Assembly: GCA_965287045.1 (NCBI GenBank)
Contig: OZ336871.1
Span: 18,476,001 to 18,540,000, forward strand
Direction: 5' to 3'
Source: Carcharhinus amblyrhynchos
Taxonomy: Eukaryota
Length of the DNA stretch: 64,000 bases
How positions within the stretch are numbered: position 1 is the first letter of the stretch; every line of letters starts with the position of its first letter. Below, in pieces: positions 1 through 51,689 of this stretch. The notes beneath the pieces were generated by a model. The model did not search any database and was not told where the DNA came from. It saw only the letters and a program-made list of their open reading frames with translations. The translations under genes and the position numbers were made by a program.

Positions 1-254
1 GAAACAGAAACAGAATTTTCAAAAAATACTCAATGGCTCCAGTGAAGGGGAGAAAAACAGAGTTAATAGGCTGAATTTCATCAGGGATCCTGACCCTAGA
101 GTGTAAGGCAGGTCCTGAGTCTGCACATGTGGGCAATAGGACCTGCTCAGCAATTTTACCACAGGTGCTCCCCTAGTTGGCAAACTGTGGTTCATTGTCC
201 AATTAAGGATAGTGTGTAGCCTCTAAGTGCTGTTCAAATACAGGGCCAGCAGTA

Positions 255-556
255 GGGCCACAGCGGCACAGTGGTTAGCACTGCTGTCTCACAGCACCAG
301 GGACCTGGGTTCAAATCCAGCCCTGGGTCATTGCCTGTGCAGAGTTTGCATGTTCTCCCCATGTCTGCATGAGTTTCCTCTGGGTCTCCAGTTTCCTTCC
401 ACTGTCCAAAAGATGTGCCGGTTAGGTGCATTGGCCATGCTAAATTCTCCTTCAGTGTACCTCAACAGGCACTGGAGTGTGGCAACTGGGGGATTTTCAC
501 AGTAACTTCATTGCAGTGTTGATGTAAGCCTATTTGTGACACTAAATAAACTTTAG
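255..556 (+). mobile_element. V-SINE (HE1-like head and body) with 'tail B' (...ggggattttcacagtaacttcattgcagtg...taaataaacttt)
   Basis: tRNA-like head ggcacagtggttagcactgctg...gggttcaaatcc and central gagtttgcatgttctcccc block; related copies at ~16950-17218(-), 21555-21840(+), 27485-27925(+), 38262-38556(+), 60232-60495(+). Confidence 0.85.
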
Positions 557-1300
557 CTCTAAAGGCCCAGTAGCAGAAATGGGCAAGGGGGTCACTGCTG
601 AGGAATGTGGGAGAATGACAGTCTCCCAAAGCTACATTCAAGAAAAACTGAGATGCTCATGGGGGCTGGAGGCCGGGGAGGGGTCAGAGGGGAATCCCCC
701 CTGAATGGTCGACGGAGCCATAGTGCTATTGCCCTTGCCCAAAGACCCACCTTTGGACCATGAAGCTTTCTTGGCTGTGTTGAGGGTAGAATGGTGATTT
801 GGACTGACAGCAGCAACTGAACAACAGGTTGGGCAAGCTGTTTCCTATGCAGTGGCTACGCAAGTGGTATTTTCCACTAACAGCATGTTGCCATCTGCCC
901 AGAAAGTCCACCGAATACAGTACCGCAGCTAATCTGGGAATTTCATTGCACAACTGCAGGAATGCATGGCGTCAAAAATGTTTAAACTGAGATCTGTTCT
1001 ATCTCTTCCACAGGACTGGGCAAACATAACAGACCCCTTGCTATTTTTCAGAGAGCAGCACTCTCTGAAATTGAGCAAGAAAAATGTTCCACCCTCCTAG
1101 TTGGTTAATGATCTCAACCAGTGTCATCATTTCTTTATTTCACGTTTCTTACATTATGACATTGACATTTCAAAAGTACCTTGTTAGCTGTAAAGGACTT
1201 TGGAACGCTCTGCTGCAATGAAAGGCACAAGAAAAAGTCTCTTGTTCTTTCTGTTTCTAAGACCTCAATGCAAATAGATTGGCTACCTTATTTGCCTACG

Positions 1301-1603
1301 TAGAATCATAGAAACCCTACAGTGCAGAAAGAGGCCATTCGGCCCATCAAGCCTGCACCGACAACAATCCCACCCAGCCCCATCTCCATAACCCCGTATA
1401 TTTACCCTGCTAATCTCCCTGACGGTAAGGGACAATTTAGCACATCTTTGGACTGTGGGAGGAAACCATAGCACCTGGAGGAAACCCACACAGACACAGG
1501 GAGAATGTGCGAATTCCACACAGACAGTGACCCAACGCCAGAATTGAACTCAGGTCCCTGGCATTGTGAGGCAGCAGTGCTAACCACTGTGCCAGCATGC
1601 CGC
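1301..1603 (-). mobile_element. V-SINE (HE1-like) with CR1-type tail (...ctgcactgtagggtttctatgattcta)
   Basis: Same head and body as other copies, 3' tail shared with CR1 3' ends. Confidence 0.85.
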
Positions 1604-2149
1604 CTGTAATGAGGGGCCCCACCAAAAGTATTTGAGTGTTTGGAAGCACTTTAGGATTCAATGATAAGTTGAAGCTTTCTTCCCCCTGCTAAACAATTTT
1701 CAAGGATCATCTGGTGAAAACAATTGTATCTAGATTTGTGTAAAAGGTGAAAAATGTACCTCAGAATTGTAATTTGTGGATCAGTATCTTGATAAGGAAA
1801 GGCTAATGTCATACTTCTAATAAAATCAGTATTATGGTGCTTTGTCAATGGTTATCACTAGAGGGCACCAGGCTTCTGCATTTCAGACAGTGAGGTTTGG
1901 ACTTGTAGAAGCCACAACCATTTCATTGAAATATGAACCTGGATTATATTCTGAAGTCTTTGAACCGTTTTATTAAGAGGCAAGAGTGTTAAAGACACTG
2001 CTAATGCCCAACCTACGGAAGGCGTAGTTTCACATACTCCATCAGCGTTTGACCCCACAGAAATCATGGGCCATCTCTCCATTGCTGTTACAGCTATAAT
2101 TAACCTTCATCAACATTGGCATAGCAGCAGCACTCGTGCCACACCATCC

Positions 2150-2420
2150 AGGAGGAGGAAAACTTCCTTGTGAACTTGGTCCTGGGCCTGGCCTAACTTG
2201 CCATCAACAGGTCCAGGCAGCGGGTAACCAAGGGAGTCGTCTGGCCCGATTGCCTCTCTATTGCGGCTATATTCAGAGTTGGGCGTCTCTAGAGAGAGAG
2301 CACAGGGTCTCTGCCAGCACTGTCTCAGTCTTCCGTACCCAATAGGCACCGCAGGGACAGGGTTATATGTCAACCTCATTAATCACAATTCGATTTGATG
2401 TTTTAAGTTTCCTTTGCGAT
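2150..2420 (+). mobile_element. Tx1-clade LINE ORF2 C-terminal remnant
   Basis: Decayed frames read FLVNLVLGLA*LAINRSRQR..GVVWPDC / GYIQSWASLEREH.VS, resembling fish/shark Tx1 ORF2 ends. Confidence 0.6.
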
Positions 2421-2429
2421 TTGTTTATG

Positions 2430-3170
2430 TTGGATTAAATAAAGTTGACTCAGTTGACTCAGGAGGACATGGTTTCAAGTCCAACTCCAAAGACTGGAGC
2501 ACGATGCAGGCTGACATTCCAGTGCAGTACTGAAGGAACGCTGCACTGCCGATAGCACCATCTTTCAGATGAGATAGAATCATAGAACCCCTACAGTAGA
2601 GAGAGAGGCCACTCGGCCCATCGAGTCTGCACCAACCACAACCCCACCCAGGCCCTACCCCCATATCCTGACATATTTACCCACTAATCCCTCTAACCGA
2701 TGCAACTTAGGACACTAAGGGCAATTTTAGCATGGTCAATCAACCTAACCTGCACATCTTTGGAGGAAACCGGAGCACCCGGAGGAAACCCACGCAGATG
2801 CGAGGACACGAACGGACAGTGACCCAAGCCGGGAATCGAACCCAGGTCCCTGGAGCTGTGAAGCTGCAGTGCTAACCACTGTGCTACCGTGCCACCCCAG
2901 ACGTTAAAACCAAGATCCAATCTGCCTTTTCAGGGACCTCAACAACTATTCAGAGAAGAGCAGTGATGTAGTTCCAGTGTCCTGGTGATTACTTATCCCT
3001 TAGCCAACATCATTAAGCTAAGTTATCTGGTTGGTCACCTCATTGTTGTACTCCAGTTGGTTGCTGAATCTCCCTTCAGTAGTGACTAAGCTTCAAACGT
3101 GCTTCATTGGGAAGCAGTCCAGGATGGCCTGAGGCAGGGAAAGGCAATATCGGAATGTGAGTTCCTTATT
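2430..3170 (+). mobile_element. DeuSINE/SacSINE1-like SINE interrupted by a V-SINE
   Basis: Head ...gttgactcaggaggacatggtttcaagtccaactcc and Deu-like block agtgtcctgg...atccct...ccaacatcatt; split by the insertion at 2575-2897. Confidence 0.6.
2575..2897 (-). mobile_element. V-SINE (HE1-like), CR1 tail, nested in older SINE
   Basis: Plus strand begins tagaatcatagaaccctacag and ends gtgctaaccactgtgctaccgtgccaccc. Confidence 0.85.
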
Positions 3171-3959
3171 TGGTGCCTGTACTGAGAGTGAGCTGGAAAA
3201 CTTGAAAATCCCAGAGTCAGGAACATAGGAGACCAAGTACAGGATTTTATGGTCCCTTGTGCTGGTGGGATCCTCCTGTCCTGCCGAAGACAGTAGATTT
3301 TTGAATGGCTTGCTGCAATTCCTGGTCCTGCTCCCACCATGAGAGAGCTGTAAAATTCCACCCAGAGTGCGTCAGCAGGCGGGAAAGGTGGCACAGATCC
3401 CACTGGTTGGCGTGGTGGATTTCCACATTAGATTGCCTGCTTTTCACCTTATTATACATGGCACGGGACTTGAACAGACTGCACCATGTCGAAATTTCTT
3501 TGCAACACGTGCTGGTGGAGTTCCTAGCCCATGACAGAATGGCCACATGCTCCAGAGACTGCCATCCTTCCAAGAGTGAGGCCTTCATCACGCAAAATTG
3601 TGGCTAGTCACTCTGAGGTCAATGTCCTTCATTGGGATAATGAGTGTAGCCGAGAAGTTGTTCATGCTGAGGCTGCCTGGAGGCAGTGTGATGCCAGGTA
3701 CTGGTGAAAGAGGCCCCTATGAACCAGTCTTCATCATCCTAGAACTTTGTAAGTCTACGGATAGAGGATGTGTTGCTCACGTCACTGCTATGGACACCAA
3801 GGCGGCTCACTGAACTGAGATGATGTGAGACACCATAGATCTGAGGCACACTATGGGAGATAAGTGAAGGGGTGGGGTCACCTGTTACACTCGCATGACA
3901 TCAGAACATGGCATCAGGTAAAAAAGCCATTAACCAGTTGGGAATTTCTGATCAGCTGC

Positions 3960-4402
3960 ATCTGATCCATGCTATGGCCTCTTCCTCTGGGGCCTCAATA
4001 TCCTGTTCTTCATTGAGCTTATCCCTCTCAACATCCCCTTATTGGAGGAGTTGTGTAGCTTCTCCATCTGGATACTCAACCCTGCTTCGGAACACCAGGC
4101 TATGTAGAGTGCAGCAACCACAATGTCACAGGACATCTTTAGAGTGGGCATTAGAGAGTCCCATCCAACCATTACAGACATCTGAAATGCATCTTCAGGT
4201 TGCCAATGTTCTACTCAATCAAGGACCCTGTCATGGGATAAGCCTAAAGAACCCTAGGCATGCAAATGGGCATCATTAGCCATACGTTTTGGGGAAAGTC
4301 TTTGATGAGCTGACCCTGGATGTGCTGAGGGTCCCTAAAGTGCCATCTGTAAATGGCTCAAGGTTTGAGAATCATGCGAGCTAACAGGGCAACTCACACA
4401 GT
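3960..4402 (-). pseudogene. PIF/Harbinger transposase C-terminal relic
   Basis: Minus frames give CPVSSHDSQTL..., WLMMP..., LIE*NIGNLKMHFRCL, matching Harbinger PGSxHD / WLMTP / IExxIGxLKxRFRCL motifs; stops and frameshifts present. Confidence 0.7.
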
Positions 4403-4404
4403 AC

Positions 4405-5095
4405 TGCAAATTGTATTCGCTGCTCCCAATGTGGTTTCGTCTTCTCTGGAGTGACTAAACACAGACTAGGTGACCACTTTGCAGAACACCTCTCAGCCTG
4501 CAAGCATGACCCCAACCTTACTGTGGTTTGCCATTTCAACTCACCACCTTGCACTCATGCCCACATGTCCATCCTTAGCCTGCTGTAATATTCCAGGAAC
4601 CCCAACACAAACTGGAAGAACAACACCAAAACTTCCGATTCAGCACCTTCCAGCCTTTTGGATGCAGCATTGAGTTCAACAACTTTTGACTGTGAGCTCT
4701 CTGTTCCAACTTGACCCCTTTTTTTGTTTTTGATGTCTTAGTTCTTTGTAACCTCTCTCTCCCCAGTCTCCCTTCCACTGCCAGCACCACAAGGCCAGCT
4801 GTCACTTATTCTCCAGCTTTGCTTTCACCGAGCACTGATCTTTGTTCCCCAGCTAACTCACTTTGCTACCTTACTTTTATGCCATTACAGCACCTTCTTT
4901 TGTCCTTAATACTACATCAACACTCGCATTGTCTTGTGTCATGATACCTTTGTCTATCTCTTGTTAGCTCCAAACTATCATTGAACTTCCATTCTGCTCC
5001 ACCTTCTCCAACTACGTAATCATCACATTGTGATCCATCTTCCACTCTGTGGAAAAGTCACACGGACTTGCAGTGTTAACTCTGTTTCTCTCCTG
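4405..5095 (+). mobile_element. Penelope-like element 3' fragment (GIY-YIG endonuclease end plus UTR)
   Basis: CIRCSQCGFVFSGVTKHRLGDHFAEHL resembles the YIGET..RLGDRFAEH motif; pyrimidine-rich UTR ending gttaactctgtttctctc. Confidence 0.7.
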
Positions 5096-5287
5096 CACTA
5101 ATATCAAATGTAGAATGAAGGATGTTCTGTGCATATCTTCTGTATTGTAAATTATATTTAAATCGCAGGTTTGATTATTAAATCCATCGGTGCAATTGCT
5201 ATTGACGGGTGATTTGAGTCACTTCAGTTTGTACATTCAAACTGGGAACATGGCACTGTGCAACTACGGTACAAGGCCTGATCCCTC

Positions 5288-5520
5288 ATTGGTTGGCCAG
5301 CACATTGCTACGTCTCGTTGGTTACCATGGTAACAGAGTGAGTTCCAGATTCCTGAGATAAATCGCTGGTTTGGCTCCATCTCGCATGTCTTGTGCTGCT
5401 CCTGCAGGCTCCCCAAAGATAGCAAATAAGGCTATTTATAGTTCCACAAGTCCTGAATTTTGTCGGCAAGGATAAATGAGCCCGCCTACGACACCCAGAG
5501 CACATCAGCGTGCAGGTAAA
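5288..5520. promoter_or_regulatory. Candidate regulatory module: RFX X-box, MEF2 site, CCAAT
   Basis: Perfect palindrome GTTACCATGGTAAC at 5321-5334; CTATTTATAG at 5432-5441; ATTGG at 5288-5292; locally CpG-retaining, apparently non-repeat sequence. Confidence 0.4.
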
Positions 5521-6009
5521 ACACTTGTTCAGTCAGCTTTGTGCCTGCATTGCAAAGATCATCCTGGAGTCTCCAAGAATGACGGATTCTGACTGCAGGG
5601 TTTAAAGGTCACGGGGCGTGTACAAACATGGTCTTCTACCAGCCCATTTTGTCTGGACATCTTCGTTTATTAGGTTTAAAAATGGTGGAGATGGAAAAAC
5701 AAATAAAGGTTGCCTGACTGACGTTTAAGAGTAATCCAGTCAGATGCAGGCCCGTTTTCTGATTGGCCACAAGAAGGCAGTGTGCCATGTCAATGACTTG
5801 TTGGGCAGCCAATGATAGAAGAGTGGGGGTGGGACAGGTGGAACCTGGAGATCACGTGGTGATCATGTGGAGCTCATGTGTGTACAGAGATGTCAACACT
5901 GCCAGCTTGTCAGTGAAGCTTACAGAAAGATGACCAAGCCTTCCTTCATCTTTTTCTAAATAGATCCAGTGAGACTCATGCACATGACCCATTTGGGATG
6001 TGACATGTG

Positions 6010-6343
6010 TGATGGTGAGGCAATGGCATTGTCACTAGACCAGAGACCCAGGGTAATATTCTGGGACCCGTGTTCGAATCCCACCACAGCAGATGGTGAA
6101 ATCTGAATTTAATAAAAATCTGCAATTAAAATGATGACCATGAAACCATTGTTGTCCATCATAAAAAAATCCATCTGGTTCACTAATGTCCTTGAGGGAA
6201 GGAAATCTGCCAGCCTCACCTGGTCTGGCCTACATGTGACTCCAGACTCACAGCAAATTGGTTGACTCTTAAATATCCTCAGGGATGGGCAATAAATGCT
6301 GGACCAGCCAGCGACACACACATCCCTTGAACAAATAAAAAAA
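6010..6343 (+). mobile_element. tRNA-derived SINE (family C) sharing its 3' tail with an old CR1-like LINE
   Basis: gttcgaatcccacc box B, core ccatctggttcactaatgtcc...ggcctacatgtgactccag, tail gggatgggcaataaatgctgg...aaaaaa; other copies at ~8755-9515 (interrupted), 23080-23470(-), 26490-26830(+), 52955-53297(+). Confidence 0.75.
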
Positions 6344-6509
6344 GATGTAGTACGTTTGGGAATAACAGAGAACTTTGATTCTATGGTTTCCAGAGCTTTA
6401 GAGGATTTTATGCTTCACATTTCAGTCTGTCGTCGATTAACTGATGCTGATTGATGGCTAGAATCGCATTATCATTGCAAATTGTGGCTACCATGTTGGC
6501 AAAAGGCAA

Positions 6510-7192
6510 ACTAAATGGAGACAATGACTCAATCTGGAGTTTTTGGCTCCTGTTTTCTTTGGCTGAGTTTGGCAACGGGAGTGGAAAATCTCATGAAAGG
6601 CCCATGCTGATGTATAAACGTGACGCAATTGTCCCCGTCTGCGACGTAGCGGGATTCCCAACATTAATATAATTTCCATACATTAACTTCTCATTATCTG
6701 GCCTTCTATGCCTGAATCATCCTTTCTTACCCGTAAGAAAGCCCATTCACATCAGCATGAGGGCAGATTGCATGAATCACCACTGGCCTCCCGAGACGTG
6801 CACCTGGCAAGCAGACCTCCCAGAGGAGCTCAAGTGAACCATTCGGCGGGGGGAGAAGGTCATGCCCCCTGGCAGTGCCCCTTGGCTTTGCCCAGGCACT
6901 ACCAACCCCTCCCCCCCGCACTGCCAGGTGGGTTGCATGGAAGATGGGTGCGTGACAGAGTGGAGGGGTGTTCCTGGTTAACCTTCCTGCACTGGCCTCT
7001 AGAAATACCGTCCCATCTCCAAATAGCTAAGTTGATGGTGGGGCAGTGCCCGCCTCGCCAGTGTGATGTCATGGGACTGACCTTTGTCTTTTTTTCACTA
7101 ATGGGAAAAATGCAGCAGAGGAATCTGCTATTTGTGCCGATGGTGTCTTCCCACCTGCTTTTGGCCTTTGCCAAAATTCAGGAAAATTCCTC
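6510..7192. mobile_element. Harbinger-type non-autonomous element
   Basis: CpG-richer body ending ggaaaattcctctc, the TIR motif shared by the MITE family in this window. Confidence 0.45.
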
Positions 7193-7480
7193 TCTCTGTT
7201 ATTATGAATTGTGTTATAATAATTTCCCTGACACAAAACTGCCCACAATTTAATACAATCCAATTAAAATCTCATTTAGTGATCACAAGGAGTCATTGCT
7301 GGATATTCCCAAGGATAAATTTAACACAAGGTTCTGGCCAGTACAAGGAACCTTTATTTAGTGATTGGTGTTGTTCCATCATCTTCAGAACACTGTGTGA
7401 ACAATCTAGAGTATTCTGTTCCAAAGAATCGATGTTTTTCAGTTTGATGGGAAAAGAATTCCAGCCTCCCGGACTGCCTG

Positions 7481-8681
7481 GATTTTCCTACATCGCAACA
7501 GGTCCACAGCAGACAACATCTCCCTGGCCCTGCACTTAACCCTGGAACATCTAGGTAACAAAGGCACCTATTTATTGGCTACAGCTCAGCCTTCAACACC
7601 ATTAGTCCGACGAAACTCATCTCCAAACTCCGTGGCCTAGGCCTCGCCACCTCCCCATGGGGCTGGATCCTGAACTTCCGTACTCACAGACCACAATCAG
7701 TAAGGATAGGCAATCACACTTCCTCCACGATAATCCTCAACACCGGTGTCTCACAAGGCTGTGTTCTCAGCCCCCTACTATACTCCTTTTACACCTATGA
7801 CCATGTGGCCAAATTCCCCTCCAACTCGATTTTCAAGTTTGCTGATGACACTACCGTAGTGGGATGCATCTCAAACAATGATGAGACAGAGGACAGGAAT
7901 GAGATGGAGAATCTGGTGAACTGGGGCAGCAACAATAATCTCTCCCTCAATGGCAACAAAACGAGGGAGATTGTCTTCAATTTCAGGAAGCATAGAGGAG
8001 AACATGCCTCTGTCTATATCAATGGGGATGAAGTGGAAAGGGTCAAGAGCTTCAAGATTTTAGGTGCCCAGATCACTAACAACCTGTCCTGGTCCCCCCC
8101 ATCCTGGCACGATTGTTAAGAAAGCCCGCCAAAGCCTCTACTTTCTCAGAAGACTAAGGAACTTTGGTATCTCAACCACATCTCTCAGCAACTTTTACAG
8201 ATGCACCATAGAAAGCATTCTTTCTGGCTGTATTACAGCTTGGTATGGTTCCTGCTCTGCCCAAGACCGCAAGAAACTACAAAAGGTTGTGAATGCAGCC
8301 CAATCCATTATGCAAACCAGCCTCCCATCCATTGACTCTGTCTACACTTCTGGCTGCCTCGGAAAGCAGACAGTGTATTTAAGGACCCTACGTACCACGG
8401 ACATTCTTTCTTCTGCCTTCTTCCGTTGGGAAAAAGAAAAAGTCTGAGGTAACGTACCAACTAACTCAAGAACGGCTTCTTCCCTACTGCCGTCAGACTT
8501 TTGGATGGACCTACCTTGCATGAAGTTGATCTTTCTCTACACCCTAGCTATAACTGTAACACTATATTCTGCACTCTCTTGTTTCCTTCTCTATGAATGT
8601 CATGCTCTGTCTGTATAGAATGCAAGAAAGAATACTTTTGACTGTATGCCAATACACATGACAATAATAAATCAAATCAAA
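7481..8681 (+). mobile_element. Rex1/Babar-clade LINE, 5'-truncated (RT domain plus 3' UTR), frameshifted
   Basis: [61 protein letters not shown] motifs; ends caataataaatcaaatcaaa. Other tail pieces at ~8887-9280 and 27636-27795(-). Confidence 0.85.
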
Positions 8682-9641
8682 GAACACCCACAATTAATGG
8701 GAAAAGTAGGTCTTGTGAAATTTATCACAAAAAAAATTAAGAAGTTTAATCCCAGATATGGCAATGTAGTGGGTTCTGTTACTGGACTTGTAATTCAGAG
8801 GACGAAAGTTCAAATCAGTTTAAATTCATTTTTAAAATTTCCTGGGAATTAAATCGGTATTATCTATAAAATCACCATAATATTGTCAACAGACTTAGGA
8901 ACAGCTTCTTCCCTGCTGCCATCAGACTGTTGAATGGTCCTATCATACATTAAGCTGATCTTTCTCTTTACCCTATTGATAACTATAATACTATATTCTG
9001 CACCCTCTCCTTTCCTTCTCTCCTTTGTACTCTATGAATGGTATGTTTTGTCTGCAACAGCTTACAATATATTTCACTGTATTCTAATAGTGAAAAGTAT
9101 TTAATTTTCTTTGTTCTTTTGGTCCTTGGAAGGATATGAGGTTTTAGTTCAGTCGAGCAGCATGGTCGGTGCAGGCTTGGAGGGCCAAAGGGCCTGTTCC
9201 TGTTCTGCAATTTTCTTTTTTCTCTTTGCTCTTAATACATGTGACAATAATAAGTCAGTTCAATTCAATTCAATTCAAATGTCTAAATCATCAGGATGTC
9301 ACTTAGAGAGCAAAGCTTGCTCGGGTATGTCACGCATGTGACTCCAGTCTGACACCAATTTGGCTAACACTAAGATGGCCTGGTACCAAGCCATCCAGTA
9401 ATAATGCCATACCAACAGCAACAGATCAAAAAGGCCATCACTTTCTAGGCAACATCAAGAGATGGACAGTCAATGTCTGCTTTACAAGGGATGGCCAGGA
9501 ATGAATGAAAATGAGTTGACTTTTCCTGTAGCTAAAAATTTATGGGGCAATATCTCAACTTTCATACTGAAAAAAAATCCAAACTTTTTCCTTTGTTAAT
9601 CAGGATAAACAATCAAGGAGTTAAAATGCCGCTAAACTTAC

Positions 9642-9802
9642 CACCGTGACTCCATTGTTGAGCAGAGATTCTCCAAAAACAACGATGAACAATGCTTCAT
9701 TCACATGGACCTCTTCAAACACGGTCAACACAGCGACTGTGTCCACTGCGGCTATCACACTCCCAAACAGGAGGAATTCCAGGAGGCCGGCATTGAGATT
9801 CC
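9642..9802 (-). CDS. SLC9A3: NHE3-like coding exon 3 (transport core), carrying P>T and D>N motif substitutions
   Basis: Read by hand: acceptor ctcctcAG at 9804-9803, then (G)[53 protein letters not shown], donor GTAAGT at 9641-9636. 161 bp, phase 1/0, in frame with exon 2. Confidence 0.95.
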
Positions 9803-11279: not shown

Positions 11280-11582
11280 CCATAATACCCGTCCGGAAGA
11301 CACCATAGAGGCTCAGACCGGTTGTTACAGTATTCCAAATTGTTCCAATGATGGCGTACATGAGAATCGATCCCAGGTTCCTGAAGAACTGCTGGTTGGG
11401 CATGAAGTACCCGGCATCCAATACGATGGGTGGCAGGAGATAGAAGAAGAAGACGGTCGGCGTTAAGGTGAAGGAGGCAGTGTGATCAGCAGCCCAGACA
11501 ATTCCTCCCAGGATGAGGCCCAGCACGATCAACAGGACACTCTCTGGTACCACGGAGGTGACCTTTCCAGACAGGTGGAACA
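11280..11582 (-). CDS. SLC9A3: Na+/H+ exchanger 3 (NHE3)-like, internal coding exon 2
   Basis: Translates (V)[100 protein letters not shown](G), closely matching vertebrate NHE3. Acceptor ttttttAG at 11584-11583, donor G|GTAAG at 11279; 303 bp, phase 1/1. Confidence 0.95.
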
Positions 11583-12974
11583 CTAAAAAAAGGGGTAAAT
11601 CAGGTTAAGAATGAGTCCAGGTGCGAATAAATAAAATGAGTCACCCCATTTATCCAACAACACTATGGTGAATGGAGTTTTCCACTTCTGTAATCCCTCA
11701 ATTAGTGTTAATATACAGTAAGCTTCCAAAGTGACAATGGAAATGTAAGTCAAGCTATATGGGTGGCACAGTGGTTAACACTGATGCCTCACAGTCCATG
11801 ACCAGGCTTCAATTCCGGCCTAGGATGACTGACTGTCTGTGTGGAGTTTGCACATTCTCCCTGTGTCTGTGTGGGTTTCCTCCAGGTGCCCCGGTGTCCT
11901 CCCACACTCCAAAGAGGTGGCCATATAACAATGCCCATGTTTCTTTGGAAGGAACTCTTCAAATGCAGACAATAAAAATATAACAGAGCTAACTTCAACT
12001 TATAAATCAAAGAAAGGGTTTTATAAAGAGATTTCATTACTCCAAGCTTTGGGCCTCACTCTGAACCAATCCACATTCCCCCACAATTCCCAACAGATTC
12101 TTATTTATAGTGAGTCGACTGACCATCACATCATTCTGTGATTGGATCCATGGTTTACGGGATCAGCTGACACTTACACCTTCTTACCATTGGTCACATT
12201 ACATCCAATACAATGTTGTCACATTCTAACAGTCTATAAAATTCAAAACTGTGCATGTGCTTTGAATTTTTTTTTTGAAGTGTTAATATTGTTTATTTCC
12301 TATACAGATGCTAGAATTAAATTCCAGAATTAAAGCGCAGAGGATGAAAGATAGTTCACCCATTGCGTGACTATTATTGCAATTATTATCTCCTCATAGC
12401 TGTAATAAATTCAAACACAAGATGTACACCATATGTTCTAAAACTGCTCTGTCTTCTGTAAAGCCATTTAATTTATTTGATTAATTAAGTCAAAGCAATC
12501 CACATCAAACTAGTGTGACCAGCGTAATTGTACTTCTAAAACAAGAGACTCATCCTTGAAGGGAAAAAAATTGCAGAGCCACAGGGAAATGTGGGATTTG
12601 TGACCAAATGGCCTTCTTCTGTGCTGTAACCATTCTATGTTAGTCATATTTTCCTCTCCAATTTTGAGGAATGGATTAAGACACAAATTCCAAAACTGGG
12701 TTCCACAGAACGCTGGGGTTCTGTAGGAAAACAAAACCGTCTCTCAAGTTTGTTCAGTCAGAGGCAGTTTTCACACAGCGTTAGATAGGTTGAACTAGTG
12801 TGCCTATCAGCAGTCAATGAGCTGAGAAGCTGGCCTCTGATTGGATCAAAGTAACCATTCAAAATTCCAGGCAAGGGTGAAAGCAAAGATGGCGGAGCAA
12901 ATGTCATAGCAACGGTGAGTGAATGCTGGAGTGAGGTAGGCAGAAGCCACGGGCAGGGGGACTTGGACATGGAG

Positions 12975-13635
12975 CAAGGGAGAGAAAGGTGAGAGCGTGT
13001 GCATGTGATAGAGGTGAGTGGGTGGGAGAAAGGAGAGAGTGTGCACGCGCGTGTGTGTGTATGAGACAGGTGAGAGTGTGTGTGTCTGTAAGTGAGTGAG
13101 AGAGAGGTAAGTGTATGTGTGTGAGAGAGAGGTACAGAGGGGAGAGATAAAAAAGGGTTCAGAGGGGCAATTTTTTCTCAGAGGGTGGTGAGTGTCTGGA
13201 ACAAGCTGCCAGGGGTAGTAGCAGAGGTGGGTGCAATTTTGTCTTTTAAAAAGCATTTAGGCAGCATACGTTTAGGCTATCGAAGGATATGGGCCAAATG
13301 CGGGCAATTAGAATTAACTTAGTCATTAAAAAAAGGACGGCTGAAGGTCCTGTTTCCATGCTGTAAACCTCTGTGATTCTATAAGGTGTGCATATCAGAG
13401 AAAGAGAGAGAGAGAGTGTGAGTGTTTGTGTGTGACAGTGTGTAAGAGAGAGAGATGAGAATGTCTATATCCATGTGTGTGAGATTATAAAAGAGAGGAG
13501 AGTGTGAAAGAGAGGTGAGAGTGTGTGTGTGTGTGAGTGTGTGCGCGCACGCGTGTGTGTGTGTGTGATTAAGGGAGAGCTGTGTGTGTGCGCGTGTGAT
13601 TGAGAGAGAGTGAGAGAGTGTTTGTGTGAAGAGAA
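12975..13635. repeat. Degenerate (GT)n/(GA)n microsatellite split by a CR1 3' fragment (~13140-13382)
   Basis: Visible gtgtgt/gagaga runs on both sides of a CR1 tail. Confidence 0.85.
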
Positions 13636-13910
13636 GCAGTGTCACTCCTCCCATTAAAAATTACTAAAAGATAAGACTTAAATAATTTGTTAAGAAGATA
13701 ACTTTCTAATTATAATAAATGCATACATATAAGAAATAGAAAGTACTTTTAAAAATGTGTTTTGTATGTTTGTATTTATTCCACAAAAACGATCAATTTT
13801 TTTGTGGTTTAACTCTTCAATCGAATAAGAATATTTCTTGGAGGCTCTGTCAGTACTCTTGAGAGATCCATGGCTGGAAACATTTGGGAAATCCTGGACT
13901 AAGACTTCCT

Positions 13911-14036
13911 GGGTGGGATTTTCCGGCTACACTCATCTCAAAAATGGAAAATCCCACCTGAAATCAACGGATTTTTGCAAGGACCCCCCCTCACTATGAT
14001 TCCCGTGGCGGGCGAGATGGGAAAATTCCAGGCACC
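13911..14036. mobile_element. Harbinger-type MITE (~125 bp)
   Basis: Ends gggtgggattttcc...ggaaaattccaggc; related MITEs at ~3240-3364, 15956-16092, 16147-16283, 25101-25220, 35681-35816, 35879-36004, 45902-46026, 47234-47443, 62373-62480. Confidence 0.7.
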
Positions 14037-15586
14037 AAGTCTTGCATGAAACCCTGGGCAGGATCTACCATTTAATATGGGGACCCCTGTCAACATCAGG
14101 TGTTGATCCCAACACCACAGTATCAGGAGCAGCAAGCAGTGGGAGCAGCCAATTGTTAGATAGAGGATGCACTCGGTGTCCAATTAAGGAAGGTGGATAG
14201 GCAGGGCCTCAAAGCTGGAGAGCTAATAAGAGGCTCTGCCCTCGAAGGCTGAAGGAACTAAAGCTGTCATTGCAGGTAAGAGATAAAGAGGGATCACCAT
14301 CCAGAAGCTCTCTCTCGGCATCCATAACTGAAATTAAAAATGGTCACAGCTACTGGACCACTATTACGGAGGGGACACCCCTCCACAGGGAGACCAGTGG
14401 CTTTGGCTGTGTCCAGGTAAGCATGATGGATGGCAGGAGGTGCTCACAATAATAATCCCCTCAGTCTGACACCAGGAGGCTGCCTCCAGGTATCTGGCCT
14501 ACCCATGATGTTACCAGGGATCCAGTCGGCCAACTGAATAGTTCAGGTCTGTCCCTAATCAATGGCCATAATTGGTCTTTTAATTGAGTAAACAAGCTGG
14601 CCACCATCTGGGGTAGTTAGCTGTTCCTCACCCAATTCAGCTTCCAAGAAATTGAACAGGAGTCCAGACCGTGATTGAGAACTGGCATGGTGGCCAGGGT
14701 TAGGAAATTCTGCACCTACCTGCCTCTGTTCCCATCTCTTAATGGAGCCACAGCCTTGCCTTGTGTCTCCATTTCCATTCTCCAATTCTCTTCTTCATCT
14801 GGTGATGCACGAAAACAGAATCTCGTCTATTTCAGTAGCTTGTAATTCCTGGAGCAAGTGACTAGTCTGTCACCAAGGCCTTACAGCTTGAGGGGCACCA
14901 CTCTATATCAAGCATGGCTCACTCTTATTGCCAACAATTAGTGTGTTTGGTAGGATTTGCAAGTTGACACACTCAACCTTACTGACCACATTATGAAAGA
15001 ATGTTCCTTGGCCATCAAAGTTGGGAGTCAAAACTGAAGCCTCTGGCTCAGAGGCAGGGACCTACCCACTACGCCACAAGACCTCCATTCTGTCTCCGTT
15101 AGACCTTTCTGCTTGGAACAAACAAGCTGCTAGACTAATGTCTCTCATCTGTCACGAAAGAACAATTCAAGTGGAATTAAAAGTTTTCTGTCCTCCGTAG
15201 AAATCGCTGCTGGAAGTTTTCACATTCTAATGCCAGGAAGTACTCAAATTCTATCTTGAGTATTCTTATTTGTAACCCAGTGCCCAAACTTCCATGAAGA
15301 ACTGTACAGAGCAACAAATTTCTGCCAACACTCAGGCTAATGCTCAGTTTTGTGGAGTTAGCTCAGGCCTGCACTCCTGCAGGGAAGATAATGATAATAG
15401 CTGATTGACTACATTGCACAGAAAGGAGGAAATGGAAGCTGGTGAAAGGTTGGCAGAAAATATGAGCAGTATACATCATCCCAACAAAGCAACACCACGT
15501 CCTGAGCGAATCTCCAACAATCGTATCCAAAAGGAGTCAAGCAATGTGAGTCTTCTTGAAGTGCCAATCAATGCTTGCACTTTTGT

Positions 15587-15896
15587 GGGTGGCATGGTGG
15601 CACAGTGGTTAGCACCGCTGCCTCACAGCGCCAGGAATCTAGGTTCAATTCTAGCCTTGGGTCACTGTCTGTGTGGAGTTTGCACATTCTCCCTGTGTCT
15701 GCTTGGGTTTCCTCCGGGTGTTCTGGTTTCCTCCCACAGTCCAAAGACTGTGGGTTAGATTGATTGGCCATGCTAAATTGATCCTGGTGTCAGGAGGTAA
15801 ATATGTGGGGTTACGGGAATAGGACCTGGATGGGATTGTGGTCGGTATAGGCTTGATGGACCGAATGGCTTCCTTCTGCACTGAAGCGATTCTATG
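15587..15896 (+). mobile_element. V-SINE (HE1-like), CR1 tail
   Basis: Full head, body and tail; similar copies at ~17404-17682(+), 25496-25817(-), 30003-30433(-), 32810-33108(+), 46788-47090(+), 48132-48409(+), 56263-56570(+). Confidence 0.85.
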
Positions 15897-18099
15897 TTTT
15901 ATAAAAGCCAAGTGAAAATTGATCAAATAAAAATGTGACTCATTTGTAAAAGCAAGGGGGTAAATTTTCCAGTCCCGCCGCTATTGGAATCACCACGGGC
16001 AGACTGGAAAATTTGACGGGTGATTGAAAGATCCAACAACCTCGGGCAGGAATTTCCACTCTCGGGTGCAGCGGGAACGGAAAATCCTGCAGTCGGGTGT
16101 CACTTAGGGTGGGTCTTTATAGTCAGTTGAGTACTTTTGAAATAGAGGGTGTGGTTTTCCAGCCGTGTGCAGCCGGAGACTGGAAATTCCCATCTGAGGT
16201 CAACAGACCTTTGAACGGTCCGGCAAATTTTCTGTCCTGCCCGTGATGATTCCCACGGCAGGCGGAACTGGAAATTTCCAGCCATGGTCTCTAACATTGT
16301 CTACAAACAAATCACCAAACTATTCCACATTCGTGACCATACCGCAAAAGGAATAAGCTCCCAGATTGATAAACTAATTATTCTGGATCATGATTTCATA
16401 AATATCCACAATTTACAACTATTCAAGAAAAGAAAACAGAAAATACCATGAACTTGTGTATTATGATCCAAGAGTGGAGCTAATGCAAAATCATTTGTAC
16501 TCATTGTCCTTGCGAGAGAGCAGTGCCTACACCTCAAGAGCACTTCATCAGCTACAAAGCTGTTTGGGATGCCCTGATTTTGTATATACCAGCAGAAACT
16601 TGGTCATAATAGAGAACAAACATTCCATTTTTATTCTCCACGATATATTTTTTGACATTAACATCATCCTGAATTACACTCAGCTGATATTTTTCTATGA
16701 ATGATCGGATAAAAGCTTTAAAAATGAAATTGTTTACCAAATTGCAAGGACATTGCCAATGCATTTTCATCAGATGAGAAAGTGCTTTACTCAACTGCAC
16801 TGTTTCAACTCATTGAGAGGATCCCCCTCCCCCCCGCTTTACTGGAGGCTTCATTTCACCCTCACTACTTTTCTTACAACAATTCAATGCCAGCACTTGT
16901 CCAACTATCTGTCCTAAAAGATGGAAAATCATCCACTGGTCAAAAAACCAATTTATTAGTATTAAAAGAAGACATTAACACTGCAATGAAACCATGGTGA
17001 AAATTCCCTAGTTGTCAAACTCCAGCGCCTGTTCAGACACACAGAGAAAATTTAGCATGGCCAAAACGCCTAACCAGCACATCTTTCAGAGTGTGAGATA
17101 AATGCATGCAGACACGGGGAGAATGTGCAGACTCCGCACAGTGACCCAAGCTGGGTATCGAACTGGGTCCCTGGCGCTGTACGGCAGCAGTGCTAACCAT
17201 TGTGCCACCATGCTGCCCAATTAACAAGCACGAGTGTGAGCCCGAGATAGGTGGACAATATTTCCTTGCATTATGATGATAAGAATTAGGAGAGGCAAGT
17301 GACTCACCACTCTCCTGCCCACAGATAGGATCAAACAGAATAATGGGTCCTCCAGGTGGAGATAAGATGTTTCAGCTTCTTGCCTCCCTGAAGTTCAGCT
17401 GCAGGATGGCATGGTGCTACAGTGGTCAGCACTACTATCTCACAGCACCAGGGACCCAAGTTCGATTCTGGCCTTGGGTGATTGACTGCATGGGTTTCCT
17501 GTAAGTGCTCTGGTTTCCTCTCAAACTCCAAAGATGTGTGGTTAGGTTGATTGGCCATGCTAAATTGACCTTCAGTGACAGAGAGATTAGCATTAAATAT
17601 ATGGCCCTACAGGGACACGGCCTGGGTGGGATTGTTGTTGGTGCAGGCTCGACGGGCCTTCTTCTGCACGGTAAGGTTCTTTACATTAAGCATTGAGCCC
17701 TGGATGTACAAACGTTTGCTTTTACACATGGTCTCAAAGTGTCTGCCAGCACCAACCAACCCAAGCTTCAGTGTTGTCTTATTAGTTTTTGGATGGACGT
17801 ATAAAGCATGGTCACTTCCTTTGTTCAGGACTGTAAACTCCTCCAACCTTGAGATCTCCATGGCTACCAACACCCCTACTACGCAGACCCACTCCACCCT
17901 CCAATTCTAACTTTTTGCATATCCCCAGTTTTGCATGATTTCACCACTGGGAGTCATGCCTTTTACTGTCTAAGTCTTGTAGGTAAGAACAGCTGCCAAT
18001 CTTACCCAATCTGACATATACAATTCCAGGTCAATGATAACGCAGTTGACTATTAACTAAACTCAACCAGTTGGTTTTAACCCAGACATGGGATTCAGA

Positions 18100-19512
18100 T
18101 GTACGGCTATAACATTGGCACCCAACAAAATGGAAAATTTGCCTTGATTTATCCCATTCACAAAAAGCAGGTAAAGTCCAACCTGGCTGATTACTATCTC
18201 ATTGGTCTACTCTGAATCATCAGCAAAGAGATGGAAGGTGTCATCAAACACAGCTATCAAATGGAACCTACTCAAGAATATCCTGTAATCCAATGCTCAG
18301 TTCGGGTCTGCCAGGGCCACTCAGCTCCAGAACATATTACAGCCTTGGTAAAAAAAACTGGGCAAAATAACTGAATTCCAAGGCTGAGGCAAGAGTGAGT
18401 GCCCTTGACATCAAGGCAGTGCTTGACCAAGTGTGGAATCAAGATATCCTGGTAAAACTGCAATAAATGAAAATCAGGGGGAAAGCTCGCCACTGGCCAG
18501 AGTCATATCTGACACAAGGGAAGATAGTTGTGGTTGTTTAAATGCCAATTATCTCAGCCCCAGGATATCATTGCAGAGGTTCCTCGTGGTCTTCAACTCT
18601 TTCATCAATGACCATCTCTCCGTCAGAAGGTCTAAAATAGGGATTTTTCTGAAGATTGCATGCTATTGAATTCCATTAGCAATTAAACAGATAATGAAAA
18701 GTCTCTGCCTGCACACAACAAGATTGGGCATCACTAAGGCTTGGGCTCAATGTTGACAAGTTGCCAATCATACGGTGAAAGTGGCTGGTTTGTAAAAACC
18801 ATATTTAACAACAAGGAAACTAACCACTTCCCTTGGTACTCAATGGCAAGAGTGTTGCTGAATTCTCTCACCATCAAAATCCAGGGGTCACCACTGATCA
18901 GAAACTGAACTGGACCACACACAGGTACTGTGGTTCAAGAACAAGTCAGAGTCTGGATATTTTGTAGTGGGTCACTCAGTTCTTGACTCCTCAGAGTCTT
19001 TCTGTATGCTGCGAGACGTAAGTCAGGGGTGTGATGAAATATTTTCCACTTGCTTCAATATTTGCAACACTTAACAAGTCCAAGCAAGCCAAAGCAGCGC
19101 ACTTAATCAGCAGTCCACGCATCACTTTCAATGTTAATTTCATCCACCACTGTACATCGTTTGTCTGCAGTGTTAACCATCAACAAGACATACTGCAGCC
19201 ACTTGCCAAGACTTCTTCAACAGCACCTCCCAAATCCATGGCCTCTCCATTTAGAGGGAGAAGGGCAGCAGGCAAATGGGAACACCACCATCTACAAGTT
19301 CCCCTCCGAGATGCATACCACACTGACTTGGATATATATAGCCATTCCTTTATTGTAGTTGTGTCTAAATTCTGGATATCTCTCCCTAACAGCATTGTGG
19401 AAGAGTCTTTGCCACAGGGTTAGAGGTCTAGATGGTTGTCCACAATTATTCTTTCAAGGGCATTCCAAGGTGGGCAATAAATACAGGCATTGCTATCTAT
19501 GCCAACATTCAA
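18100..19512 (+). mobile_element. Old CR1-like LINE ORF2 relic with 3' end
   Basis: Decayed PIHKKQ.KSN.A.Y / IISK.MEGVI motifs; tail gggcaataaata...; same family at ~37430-37725(-), 46510-46660(-), 57866-58556(-). Confidence 0.7.
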
Positions 19513-19725
19513 AAATTGTTTGTTTTTTTTTGAAAGAAGCTCTGAAATTCTCTCCTGAAACCTCAGTGCCTAATTTTTCTGTCTAAAATACTTCTTAAAC
19601 CCAAAGGCAGGATATTTCAGACGGTGGACATTTCTGCCCTGCCACCCAAAGAATACATTTCCACTAGCCCAATAGACCTTTAATGCTCATGAAGTGTTCA
19701 TTGGCTGCAGATGGAGTCCATTAGG

Positions 19726-19824
19726 TCATCTGATGAAGGAGCAATGCTCTGAAAGCTACTGGCTTTTACTACCAAATAAACCTGTTGGAGTTTAACCTGG
19801 TGCTGCGAGACTTCTTACTGTGCC
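19726..19824 (+). mobile_element. Penelope-like terminal repeat fragment with minimal hammerhead-like core
   Basis: CTGATGA-aggagcaatgctct-GAAAGCTA followed by aataaacctgttggagtttaacctggtg...gagacttcttactgtgc, the same end as the element at 30919-31856. Confidence 0.7.
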
Positions 19825-21989
19825 TGCAAACTTACCAGTAGGGGGAAGTAAAATTCTGTCCTTACCCCTGTGTGAAATCTGTCCTTATATTATGTTTGAT
19901 AATGCTCCTGTGAAGCAATTTGGGATGGCTTACTATGTCAAGGACATTACAGTTATGCATGTTTCTTGATTTGAAAAGGGTTCTGGCCCAGTTTCCAATT
20001 TAATGCTACAGTACACGCTACGTGAATATAGTCCATGGCAAACTTTAGAACACAGAAGCCAAATTTTCCCATCCACAATTGTCCGGGAAGGGAGACGGAC
20101 CAGTAAAGAAAATGGTCACAATGTCACGAGACTGAAAGTCTCAGTTCCATTTCCAAATTCCACCACATTCCCAAACAGCAGAGGGAGCAGGCCTCGGAAC
20201 AGGCCCCAACCCTTCCAAACATCAACTGAAATCATTGTGGGCTTGATAAGAGCCCATTTCCTGTAAATGTTGGAAATTTCAGAGCCGGGTCAGAGCTGCC
20301 TGGTATCTTTCCAGTTGTAAGGGGCCAAGGAGCAGATGGGGCCTTGATTCAGCATCTCGGTCAAAAGACAGCACCTTCAGACAGTACAGAATTCCCTCAG
20401 TGCTCCACTGGAAATGTCACCCCGATTATGTCCTCAATCTCCGAACTAGGACTTAGAGGCACAACTGCCATGACTGACAAATATAAAAAACATAAATCGA
20501 GAGGAGAATTTGAAAATATTGAAGTTTCTCCTTTGCCTTCTTGGATGTGAAGTGCAAATTGAGAAGTATGAACATGTCCAGAATTTTCTCTGTAGGGACA
20601 TTAACTGATGTTGGAATCATATCTTAGAATCATAGATCCCTAAAGTGCAGAAGAGGCTATCGGCCCAACTCTGTCAGAGTGTATCTTATCTAGGCCCTAA
20701 ACCCTGCCCTATTCCTATAACCCCACACATTTACCATGGTTATCCCATCTAACTTACACATTCTGGGACACTGAGGGTCAAGTTAGCATCGCCTTGCCAC
20801 CTAACCTGTACTTCTAAATTGACATAATTATTGCGCACACTTCCTGTCACATCACACTTACTTCCTGTCACACTTTGTTGATAACATCACAGTTGAAATG
20901 AAATCCCATTTCTTCATAGCAAGTGTCAGGGTCCTGTTGCATCAAGCGTTCTGTAGACATACTTTGAGAATGCAACTGGTCTTGAGATGCTCTTGCAGAG
21001 AGGAAGGCAACTCATTTCTCTGCCAAGGCTAAGCAGGTAGGCCCTGGCATTTGGAGAGGTAACCCCTCCAGCCGCAGAGTCAGGATCATGGCTCACTCTT
21101 TGAGGCTTATTGAGTTTCCAGTTTTTCCCTCTGGGAGTCCACAATTTCATCTTGGGTTCAGATCTCAAAGGGTCATTAGTCTTTGGAATTCTCTACCCTA
21201 GAGGACAATGGAGGCTTGGTCATTGACTATATTCAAGGTAGAATGAGACAGATTTTTGATCTACAAAGGAGATGCAGACAGAGAATTGGCAGTATGGCCA
21301 CGATCAGATCAGCCATGATGTCACGGAATGGCAGAATAGACTTGATGGACTGAATGACCTTCTTCTGCTCCTTTTTCTAATGTTCTTATGCAAATGAGTC
21401 AACTGGGACCCTTTCAGAATAAAGTTGACTCAACTAACCTGATAGCACATCATTATTTGCAACAAAAATCTATCAAATTCATACCTACTTATTGGGTGAA
21501 GAATCAGCCTGTTGATATCTAATTAGAAAAGTCTCCTTGAACCCCTAAGGGTTAGGATGGCACAGTCGTTAGCATTGCTGCCTCATAGCGCCAGGGACCC
21601 AGGTTCAATTCCCGGCTTGGGTCACTGTCTGTGTGGAGTTTGCACATTCTCCCCGTATCTGCGTGGGTTTCCTCTGGGTGGTCCTGTTTCCTCCCACAGT
21701 CTGAAAGACATGCTGATTAGGTGCATTGGCCATGCTAAATTCCCCTTTAGTGTGCCCGAACAGGCACCAGGGTGTGGCAACTAGGGGATTTTCACAGTAA
21801 CTTGACTACGGTGACACTTGTGACACTAATAAATAAAAAACTGAAAGATATTGACCAACTACAAATACCAGGGCTGAGAGCGTCAGATGCTTAGTTTGTC
21901 TGAAATTTATCTTGATATTGGATCACAGTCAGTGGAGGACATTTTAAGAAGTAAAATGAGTCTAAGTTGGCGTAAACACTGTTTTGGGG

Positions 21990-22283
21990 ATTATAGTTTG
22001 AGGATAAAGGGAAAATCTTTTAGAACTGAGGTGAGGAGAAATTTCTTCATCCAGAGAATGTGTGGAATTCACTACCACAGAAAGTAGTTGAGGCCAAAAC
22101 ATTGTCTGATTTCAAGACAAAACTAGATATAGCTCTTGGGGCTAAAGGGTCAAGGGATTTGGGGTAAGGAAAGAATCAGGATATTGAATTTGATGGTCAC
22201 CCATGATCAAGATGAATAGCAGAGCAGGCTCAAAGGGTTGAATGCTTCTAGTTATACTAGAATACTCCTGCTTCTAGTTTCTA
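21990..22283 (+). mobile_element. CR1 LINE 3' fragment
   Basis: YSLRIKGKSFRTEVRRNFF plus 3' UTR ending tactcctgcttctagtttcta; another fragment at ~21165-21390. Confidence 0.75.
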
Positions 22284-25913: not shown

Positions 25914-26372
25914 CTAGAAGACATCTCTGTAGCTTTTACCTCTGTTTAAATGCCTAAAACACTGGCATTCAATTTTCTGGATGTCATTTTTAAAAAAAAG
26001 AGTTATTTTTACACTTGCAATTTCAAGCACCTCTTCATTTCTCTTATGATCTGTAAGTGCACATTTTAACAGCCACATTTCAAATACCTCTATATTATCT
26101 TTCACAGATCTTTGCATATGGTTCAGGTTTTTGAGGCATACACAAAAGTAAATATAGAAGTAAGTAGTATTGTATGAATCCTTTTTCTCTGTTAGAAGCT
26201 TGAATTTTCTTCGTGTTAGTACATTCTTCATCTTCACAAAAGTACCTTTGGCTATCATTATCCTTCATTTGATTTTGGCATTGAATCGAGTATCTCTGAT
26301 TATCATTTGCCCTAAATAGATAAAGTTATCTACTTGCTGCATTGTGACAACATCCACTTCAATCTTGATTGA
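25914..26372 (-). mobile_element. RTE-clade LINE ORF fragment
   Basis: QVDNFIYLGQ..RIMIAKGTFVKMKNVLT..IEVFEMWL..TDHKRNEEVL matches RTE C-terminal motifs. Confidence 0.7.
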
Positions 26373-26376
26373 GAGT

Positions 26377-51500: not shown

Positions 51501-51689
51501 CTTACTTTTTTCAGAGACTACACCCAGGCTTAACAAATTGAGCACAGCGAGCATCGCTAGTAAGTAGGCTCATGTAATCAAACACAGAACAATTGATACT
51601 ACAATATCCATGTCACCCATTTCATGGGACATCCAATACATGTAGCTGGGGCTTAGCAGAAATTGAAATCTTTAAGAATGGAGTGGAGA

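What the first reader, a model, noticed from the sequence alone, without database searches (positions are those of the whole stretch)
9654..9656. NHE3-like exon lacks the ion-binding aspartate: ESLLND reads ESLLNN
Seen: the minus-strand codons read GGA GAA TCT CTG CTC AAC AAT GGA GTC ACG GTG|GTAAGT, so the Asp of the ND motif is Asn (AAT). The exon keeps its length, phase, splice sites and many CpGs. Known: this Asp (NHE1 D267; NHE3 D221 by my count) is essentially invariant in SLC9A exchangers and D>N abolishes exchange in NHE1. Inference: this is either a transport-dead or repurposed NHE3 copy (for example a regulatory or dominant-negative dimer partner, or altered substrate), a young pseudogene, or a rare allele or assembly error. 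The change is a single CpG-type transition (AAC GAT>AAC AAT), so the mundane explanations are real.
Basis: partly seen in the sequence, partly recalled or inferred. Interest (0 to 1): 0.8.

Follow-up and report, generated by a model that had tools for sequence, protein, structure and literature searches.

The report
Shark NHE3 duplicate shedding catalytic aspartate
This shark carries a second, intact copy of the gene for the sodium/proton exchanger NHE3, shared with at least eleven other shark species; the aspartate that binds the ions is missing here and in two of those species, so the copy is likely kept for a job other than ion exchange, probably as a regulatory partner of the normal exchanger.

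Summary
In detail: window 9656-9654 reads AAT (ESLLNN); the residue is human NHE3 D221/NHE1 D267. It does not look like an error or a young pseudogene. The exon belongs to an intact 16-exon, 948-aa tandem duplicate of slc9a3; a canonical ND-bearing copy lies 150 kb upstream. The duplicate forms one clade (100/99) in 12 galeomorph sharks and is under purifying selection (dN/dS about 0.28). D221 was lost three times independently (N here, N in Carcharodon, A in Heterodontus; 3 of 12 versus 0 of 115 canonical NHE3), while the fold-critical charged residues stay fixed. The copy kept the gill-type first exon and promoter and an ancient long C-terminal exon that the canonical copy has lost. Best reading (0.5): a non-exchanging NHE3 paralogue kept as a scaffold or regulatory partner. 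Rivals: a transporter re-tuned to K+/NH4+ or uncoupled (0.25), or a weakly constrained spare exchanger dying lineage by lineage (0.2). No expression or activity data were found. The scan had not noted this gene before.

The parts
9654..9656 (-). AAT (Asn) at the ion-binding Asp position, human NHE3 D221 / NHE1 D267; residue 232 of the 948-aa protein
9738..9740 (-). ACA (Thr) replacing the proline of AVDP (human P193, unwound TM5; position 4 of the CPA motif); Thr in 12 of 12 duplicates, Pro in 115 of 115 canonical rows
9651..9653 (-). GGA (Gly) after the ND position (human A222); Gly in 12 of 12 duplicates, in 0 of 24 canonical cartilaginous-fish rows and 3 of 91 other vertebrate rows
9642..9802 (-). 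Coding exon 3 of the duplicate (TM5-TM6, ion-binding site), 161 nt, AG/GT; 79.5% identical to the canonical copy's exon 3
11280..11582 (-). Coding exon 2 of the duplicate (TM2-TM4), 303 nt, AG/GT; Pfam Na_H_Exchanger E 3e-19
11583..64000 (-). Most of intron 1 (62,365 nt); exon 1 (gill-type) lies outside the window at G000:C2:18550191-18549948
1..9641 (-). Intron 3; exons 4-16 follow outside the window, G000:C2:18475895 down to 18444227. The canonical slc9a3 lies at G000:C2:18722739-18602248, same strand

Best explanation
The exon belongs to an intact tandem duplicate of slc9a3 that is shared across galeomorph sharks and whose product is likely a folded but non-exchanging NHE3, probably kept as a scaffold or regulatory partner of the canonical exchanger. 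Shown: intact 16-exon frame; a canonical copy next door; one clade in 12 sharks; purifying selection; substitutions fixed at its origin around the TM5/TM12 crossover; three independent losses of D221; retention of the gill-type exon 1, its core promoter and a long, very conserved C-terminal exon. From published mutagenesis: D-to-N at this site abolishes exchange in NHE1, so this genome's copy is inferred to be exchange-dead. Inferred: the stem changes (P193T, A417S/V418M, K69Q) had already removed or reduced coupling, which freed D221 to drift while the fold stayed selected; the protein would be made in gill ionocytes, would pair with canonical NHE3 through the largely unchanged dimer domain or anchor partners through its ETQF tail, and would thereby tune surface amount or activity of NHE3.
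For: Frame: 2847 nt, 948 aa, 15 of 15 introns GT-AG, no stop. Canonical copy with ND, AVDP, GLRGAV 150,273 nt away. Tree of 39 rows: the 12 duplicates are one clade, 100/99. D221 is N, N, A in 3 of 12 duplicates and D in 115 of 115 canonical NHE3; without this genome, which was picked for the change, 2 of 11 versus 0 of 115, p 0.007. D221 is the only one of 227 near-invariant membrane columns with 3 parsimony steps (mean 0.22); two further steps have P 0.02; 3 steps match the rough neutral expectation of 1.7-4.3. D126, E84, D192, E216, S217, N220, K340, E347, R382, R397, R415 show no change. Paralogue dN/dS 0.28 over 666 codons. The membrane domain differs from Mustelus at 8 of 386 sites, against 18 of 386 for the canonical pair with Triakis. 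A dying gene would be hit at this codon before any frame lesion with chance 0.7-3% per lineage. The last about 60 residues are almost identical in the 6 long-tailed duplicates aligned. D267N abolishes NHE1 activity (PMC8190280, passages); D221 is the NHE3 ligand (PMC9132474, passages); transport-dead NHE1/NHE5 mutants act dominant-negatively (PMC3128527, passages).
Against: 9 of 12 duplicates keep the Asp, including the sister rows Mustelus and Cetorhinus, so most may still transport. Two of the three losses are D-to-N, which a CpG hot spot makes easily; as a blind scan 0.35 columns with 3 steps are expected among 227. The Carcharodon and Heterodontus residues rest on one annotated assembly each. 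The excess of fixed changes in the core over the dimer domain (10 of 117 versus 3 of 111) is not significant, p 0.085. One of the three, K69Q, is in TM1, which helps form the dimer interface. The cytoplasmic region 456-680 evolves faster than in canonical NHE3 (180 versus 73 steps). Three annotated duplicates end in a diverged short tail, not the long one. No effect of P193T or A417S/V418M on activity was found in any paper I could read.
Confidence: 0.5

Rival explanations
1. The duplicate is a re-tuned transporter: the stem changes altered selectivity (K+ or NH4+ instead of Na+) or uncoupled it from protons, so that D221 became optional and the protein still moves a solute.
For: P193T puts a threonine at position 4 of the CPA motif; Ser/Thr at position 1 or 4 marks K+-selective clades (PMC6181914, passages). 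All other site residues, the E216-R382 pair and the autoinhibitory plug YSRH are kept. The fixed changes lie mostly in the translocating core (10 of 13). Mammalian SLC9C1 has TS for ND and was proposed to have acquired other functions (PMC6052114, passages).
Against: In that paper Thr at position 4 describes Kef-like CPA2s; K+-selective CPA1s have Ser1/Ala4 and still keep the Asp, which is conserved in 94% of 6537 sequences. A cation/H+ exchanger of any selectivity should still need D221; three losses, one to Ala, fit only an uncoupled or non-transporting protein.
Confidence: 0.25
2. The duplicate is a spare, weakly constrained Na+/H+ exchanger that works in most sharks; the three Asp losses are independent recent knock-outs (two at a CpG), and this copy is a very young pseudogene.
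For: Asp kept in 9 of 12. Near-invariant membrane columns change ten times more often than in the canonical copy (53 versus 5 steps). The canonical codon context here is AAC GAT, a CpG. The Carcharodon duplicate has the most departures (25 of 237).
Against: No frame lesion in this genome and full-length protein models in the other two species; hitting this codon first in two further lineages has chance 5e-5 to 1e-3. This genome's copy has among the fewest departures (16 of 237) and is closer to Mustelus than the canonical pair is. AAT appears shared with another organism.
Confidence: 0.2
3. The AAT is an assembly error or a private allele of an otherwise ND-bearing paralogue.
For: Mustelus, the closest named orthologue (98% over the exon), has D. 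Only contigs, not raw reads, were seen, and contigs drop rare variants.
Against: Contigs X4 (second sample) and X6 (organism B) span the codon without a listed difference (with 80 rows hidden). The same position is lost in two other sharks.
Confidence: 0.05

Closest known systems
Vertebrate NHE3 (SLC9A3); human structure 7x2u; canonical shark NHE3 such as Triakis scyllium M5A7P9
   Same: Same exon sizes and phases for exons 2-14, 331 of 386 membrane-domain residues identical to the neighbouring canonical copy, same gill-type exon 1 and core promoter, CHP-binding helix, lipid arginine R397 and plug YSRH kept.
   Different: D221N here; P193T, A222G, A417S/V418M, K69Q and R553Q fixed in the clade; ends in the long ETQF exon and lacks the short PESSM exon of the canonical copy.
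RefSeq 'sodium/hydrogen exchanger 3-like' models of Mustelus, Scyliorhinus (2), Carcharodon, Cetorhinus, Chiloscyllium (2), Hemiscyllium, Stegostoma, Rhincodon, Heterodontus
   Same: These are its orthologues; all share AVDT, G222 and GLRGSM.
   Different: Automatically named only; nine keep D221, Carcharodon has N, Heterodontus has A.
Mammalian SLC9C1 (sNHE/NHE10)
   Same: A natural SLC9 protein without the ND aspartate (TS), with a suspected non-exchange role in cAMP signalling (PMC6052114 and PMC10573352, passages).
   Different: A distant subfamily with voltage-sensor and nucleotide-binding domains; here the case is a recent SLC9A paralogue beside its working parent, with the loss caught recurring.
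Engineered transport-dead NHE1 D267N and NHE5 E209I
   Same: Same site or site network; loss of exchange, and for E209I stable trafficking with a dominant-negative effect.
   Different: Laboratory mutants; nothing shows that the shark protein behaves so.

Membership tests
NHE3/SLC9A3 lineage (by descent) | Sequence, exon structure and tree position within NHE3 | tested here: met
   Best PDB hit NHE3; exon-for-exon match to the canonical copy; nests inside cartilaginous-fish NHE3
Electroneutral Na+/H+ exchanger (CPA1/NHE) | ND motif aspartate (NHE3 D221, CPA motif position 7) | tested here: not met
   Asn in this genome
Electroneutral Na+/H+ exchanger (CPA1/NHE) | Non-polar unwound TM5 segment ending in DP (CPA motif positions 1-4) | tested here: not met
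   AVDT in 12 of 12 duplicates
Electroneutral Na+/H+ exchanger (CPA1/NHE) | Glu5-Arg8 pair, Asp3, Asn6 and S217 | tested here: met
   E216, R382, D192, N220, S217 in 12 of 12
Electroneutral Na+/H+ exchanger (CPA1/NHE) | Na+-dependent proton extrusion | not testable with these tools
   Needs expression and assay
NHE3 (physiological) | Apical expression in gill, kidney or gut | tested here: inconclusive
   Gill-type exon 1 and about 210 nt of upstream sequence with TATA and GC-rich boxes conserved at 82%; no transcript seen
NHE3 (physiological) | CHP-binding helix and autoinhibitory plug | tested here: met
   Region 466-506 nearly unchanged; Y635 S636 R637 H638 in 12 of 12; helix bounds recalled
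Pseudogene | Stops, frameshifts, broken splice sites or dN/dS near 1 | tested here: not met
   None in 16 exons; dN/dS 0.24-0.30 by domain
K+-selective CPA | Ser/Thr at CPA motif position 1 or 4 with the Asp retained | tested here: inconclusive
   Thr at 4 (a CPA2 Kef-like trait) but no Ser at 1, and Asp lost here

The most novel reading that the evidence does not exclude
Galeomorph sharks have carried, since their common ancestor, a natural pseudo-exchanger of the SLC9A family: a gill-promoter NHE3 paralogue that gave up ion exchange, took over an ancient long C-terminal tail, and works as a regulatory subunit that pairs with and throttles or anchors canonical NHE3, with the catalytic aspartate now dropping out lineage by lineage.
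Probability: 0.3. Interest if true: 0.78.

Novelty: new variant of a known kind. Interest (0 to 1): 0.6.

Why it matters
NHE3 is the main candidate for acid excretion and Na+ uptake in shark gill ionocytes (PMC11291541, passages), and is treated as one gene. A second, conserved copy with a remodelled ion site would change how shark qPCR and RNA-seq data are read (exon identity 75-98% between copies), and it is invisible here to the usual antibody, whose epitope lies in the short terminal exon. If it is a non-exchanging partner it would be a natural case of NHE regulation by a dead subunit, so far known from engineered mutants; if it is re-tuned it is a natural test of the CPA selectivity motif. 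Orthologues with D, N and A at one site give a ready-made series to assay.

Tried and rejected
No RNA holder was listed for the stretch, and a search of shorter proteins returned no fragment of the duplicate among the 120 rows listed (best identity 82%): neither is evidence on expression. A likeness of the long tail to the NHE5 tail, seen by eye, was not significant (E 0.30) and is dropped. The tail's spread across taxa was not surveyed. No kidney/intestine-type exon 1 remnant was found in the duplicate's intron 1. Enrichment of fixed changes in the core domain: p 0.085, not claimed. The 'novel NHE isoform' of PMC9105869 is NHE1, not this gene (passages). 150 reading frames of the window (148 of the 153 of 78 aa or more, plus 2 shorter) against Pfam showed no nested gene, only the two NHE exons and retroelement pieces. 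No structure or complex prediction was run: at 86% identity to NHE3 a pass would follow from likeness to solved dimers. dN/dS across species could not be computed, as only proteins of the other sharks were held. Rows dropped before counting duplicates: P0132, P0135, P0139 (second models of species already counted; all D). Two papers I recall (NHE1 TM VI cysteine scan; Triakis NHE3 isoforms) were not held, so I saw nothing of them and rest no claim on the first. Literature searches found no description of a second shark NHE3 gene; most subscription physiology journals are outside that library, and no supplements were read. Earlier scan notes: none by sequence; the word search met neither nhe3 nor slc9a3.

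Full report
Observation. The minus strand at 9680-9642 reads ...GGA GAA TCT CTG CTC AAC AAT GGA GTC ACG GTG, then gtaagt. The translated exon matches human NHE3 best among solved structures (7x2u, E 2e-19), and alignment to human NHE3 puts the Asn at D221. Passages of PMC9132474 name S217, D221, the V191 carbonyl and a D192-held water as the Na+ site; passages of PMC8190280 state that NHE1 D267N abolishes transport while D267E keeps it.

Is the letter real? Contigs from a second sample (X4, one piece over 9400-11522) and from organism B (X6, one piece over 9400-10706) cover the codon, and no difference is listed at 9654-9656, though differences at 9631, 9735, 9771, 9789, 9790 and 9800 are. Eighty rows were hidden and contigs drop rare variants, so this is good but not final. 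For X5 and X8 the table cannot decide.

The gene. A search of the genome found 7 NHE exons of this kind; the other 6 read ND, and the closest lies 150 kb away on the same contig and strand. With flanking stretches both genes were traced. The window's gene has 16 exons from G000:C2:18550191 to 18444227, 2847 nt, 948 aa, all introns GT-AG, no stop; only exons 2 and 3 are in the window. The upstream gene is a canonical NHE3 of 833 aa with two alternative first exons. One matches the Triakis form that its source names 'renal and intestinal variant'; the other matches Triakis isoform 1, which I take as the gill form (partly recalled). The duplicate has only the latter type, with about 210 nt of upstream sequence, including TATA and GC-rich boxes, conserved at 82%. 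The two copies have split two terminal exons: the canonical copy keeps the short one and has a frameshifted relic of a long one (68% identity, 61 gap positions); the duplicate keeps the long one intact and has no trace of the short one. The long exon is old: it also ends NHE3 models of Callorhinchus, platypus, Dromiciops and a gull.

Orthologues. Protein searches returned 'NHE3-like' models from 11 named sharks of four galeomorph orders, several with accession numbers adjacent to the canonical gene. In a tree of 39 rows (12 duplicates, 24 canonical cartilaginous-fish rows, 3 outgroups; the other 88 vertebrate rows left out) the duplicates are one clade, 100/99, inside a galeomorph group at 95/92. 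None was found among squalomorph, ray or chimaera proteins, which is weak evidence of absence. All 12 share V148I, A156V, P193T, A198T, A222G, L373F, A417S, V418M and R553Q; K69Q is in 11 of 11 that cover it. P193 and A417/V418 sit at the TM5/TM12 crossover; PMC8190280 places P239 (the NHE1 equivalent) at the start of TM5b and D238 against the N-cap of TM12b. The TM12 placement of 417-418 is from recall.

The aspartate. It is D in 9 duplicates, N here and in Carcharodon, A in Heterodontus, against D in 115 of 115 canonical rows. Because Mustelus and both Scyliorhinus (sisters of this genome's copy) and Cetorhinus (sister of Carcharodon) keep D, these are three separate events (species tree recalled, pairings confirmed). 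Of 227 membrane columns near-invariant in 103 non-galeomorph rows, 183 have no step in the duplicate clade, 36 one, 7 two, and only D221 three. This genome was chosen for the change; without it the figures are 2 of 11 versus 0 of 115 (p 0.007) and P 0.02 for two steps at the mean rate. As a blind scan one such column is not unusual (0.35 expected); the weight comes from its being the known catalytic residue. A rough neutral expectation for an Asp codon on this tree is 1.7-4.3 changes. Other invariant acidic residues show no change or only D/E swaps.

Selection. Between the two copies dN/dS is 0.28 (666 codons), 0.24 in the membrane domain, 0.12 in exon 3; this averages both branches, and uneven exon identity (75-98%) suggests gene conversion that lowers dS. 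The duplicate differs from Mustelus at 8 of 386 membrane sites, the canonical copy from Triakis at 18 of 386. Constraint is relaxed relative to canonical NHE3 at near-invariant columns (53 versus 5 steps) and in the cytoplasmic region (180 versus 73), but total membrane-domain steps are alike (152 versus 138). A gene that had lost all function would be hit at this codon before any stop, frameshift or splice lesion with chance 0.7-3%; this assumes the other two annotated models are truly intact.

Mechanism. The pattern is that of a pseudo-enzyme: the one purely catalytic residue drifts, the fold residues and a protein-interaction tail are held. I therefore favour a non-exchanging protein kept for its scaffold (0.5). 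NHE3 is a dimer formed by TMs 1, 3, 8 and 10, the dimer domain has few fixed changes (3 of 111), the promoter predicts co-expression, and dead NHE1/NHE5 mutants act dominant-negatively; pairing, co-expression and any effect are inferred, not shown. That ETQF is a PDZ-type end and R553 part of a PKA site is recalled. The main rival (0.25) is a re-tuned transporter: passages of PMC6181914 link Ser/Thr at motif position 1 or 4 to K+ selectivity, and P193T is position 4, but such proteins keep the Asp. A spare exchanger dying repeatedly (0.2) fits the 9 of 12 that keep D and the CpG context, but not the intact frames. Error or private allele gets 0.05.

Known and new. By descent it is an NHE3; it fails two defining sequence features of an electroneutral exchanger and activity is untested. 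A natural ND loss is known in mammalian SLC9C1 (passages of PMC6052114). The paralogue is in RefSeq under an automatic name; searches found no paper describing it, within a library that lacks most subscription journals. Of PMC9105869, PMC9581171, PMC9396271, PMC11291541, PMC10620092, PMC11266974 and PMC10573352 I saw passages only; none of those passages mentions a second shark NHE3. No expression evidence was obtained. Verdict: real, old, selected, probably exchange-dead in this species; new variant of a known kind; interest 0.6.

Noticed in passing
G000:C2:18444822-18444227 (duplicate) and 18598500-18597820 (canonical relic): An ancient alternative long terminal exon of NHE3 (ending EETQF/L, also in chimaera, platypus, a marsupial and a gull) is intact in the duplicate and frameshifted in the canonical copy; the short exon shows the reverse.
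   Followed up: partly
G000:C2:18602492-18602248: The epitope of the usual anti-elasmobranch NHE3 antibody (PMC11291541) lies in the short terminal exon, which the duplicate lacks in this genome.
   Followed up: no
duplicate exons 1, 6, 8 (G000:C2:18550191, 18471909, 18464650) versus canonical: Very low divergence in exons 1 (dS 0.11), 6 (94%) and 8 (98%) against 80% in exon 3 hints at gene conversion that spares the ion-site exon; N-termini also look species-matched between copies.
   Followed up: partly
G000:C2:18460753-18460647: R553Q in 12 of 12 duplicates removes a basic residue before the serine equal to human S555 (a PKA site, recalled).
   Followed up: no
window 7559-8444 and 28068-28799, + strand: Fragments of non-LTR retroelement reverse transcriptase in the introns (Pfam RVT_1; an ALKBH8_N hit follows the first).
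   Followed up: no
protein P0033: An unnamed 163-aa NHE5-like fragment from a Logan contig also lacks both the DP proline (VDL) and the ND aspartate (NN); organism and validity unknown.
   Followed up: no
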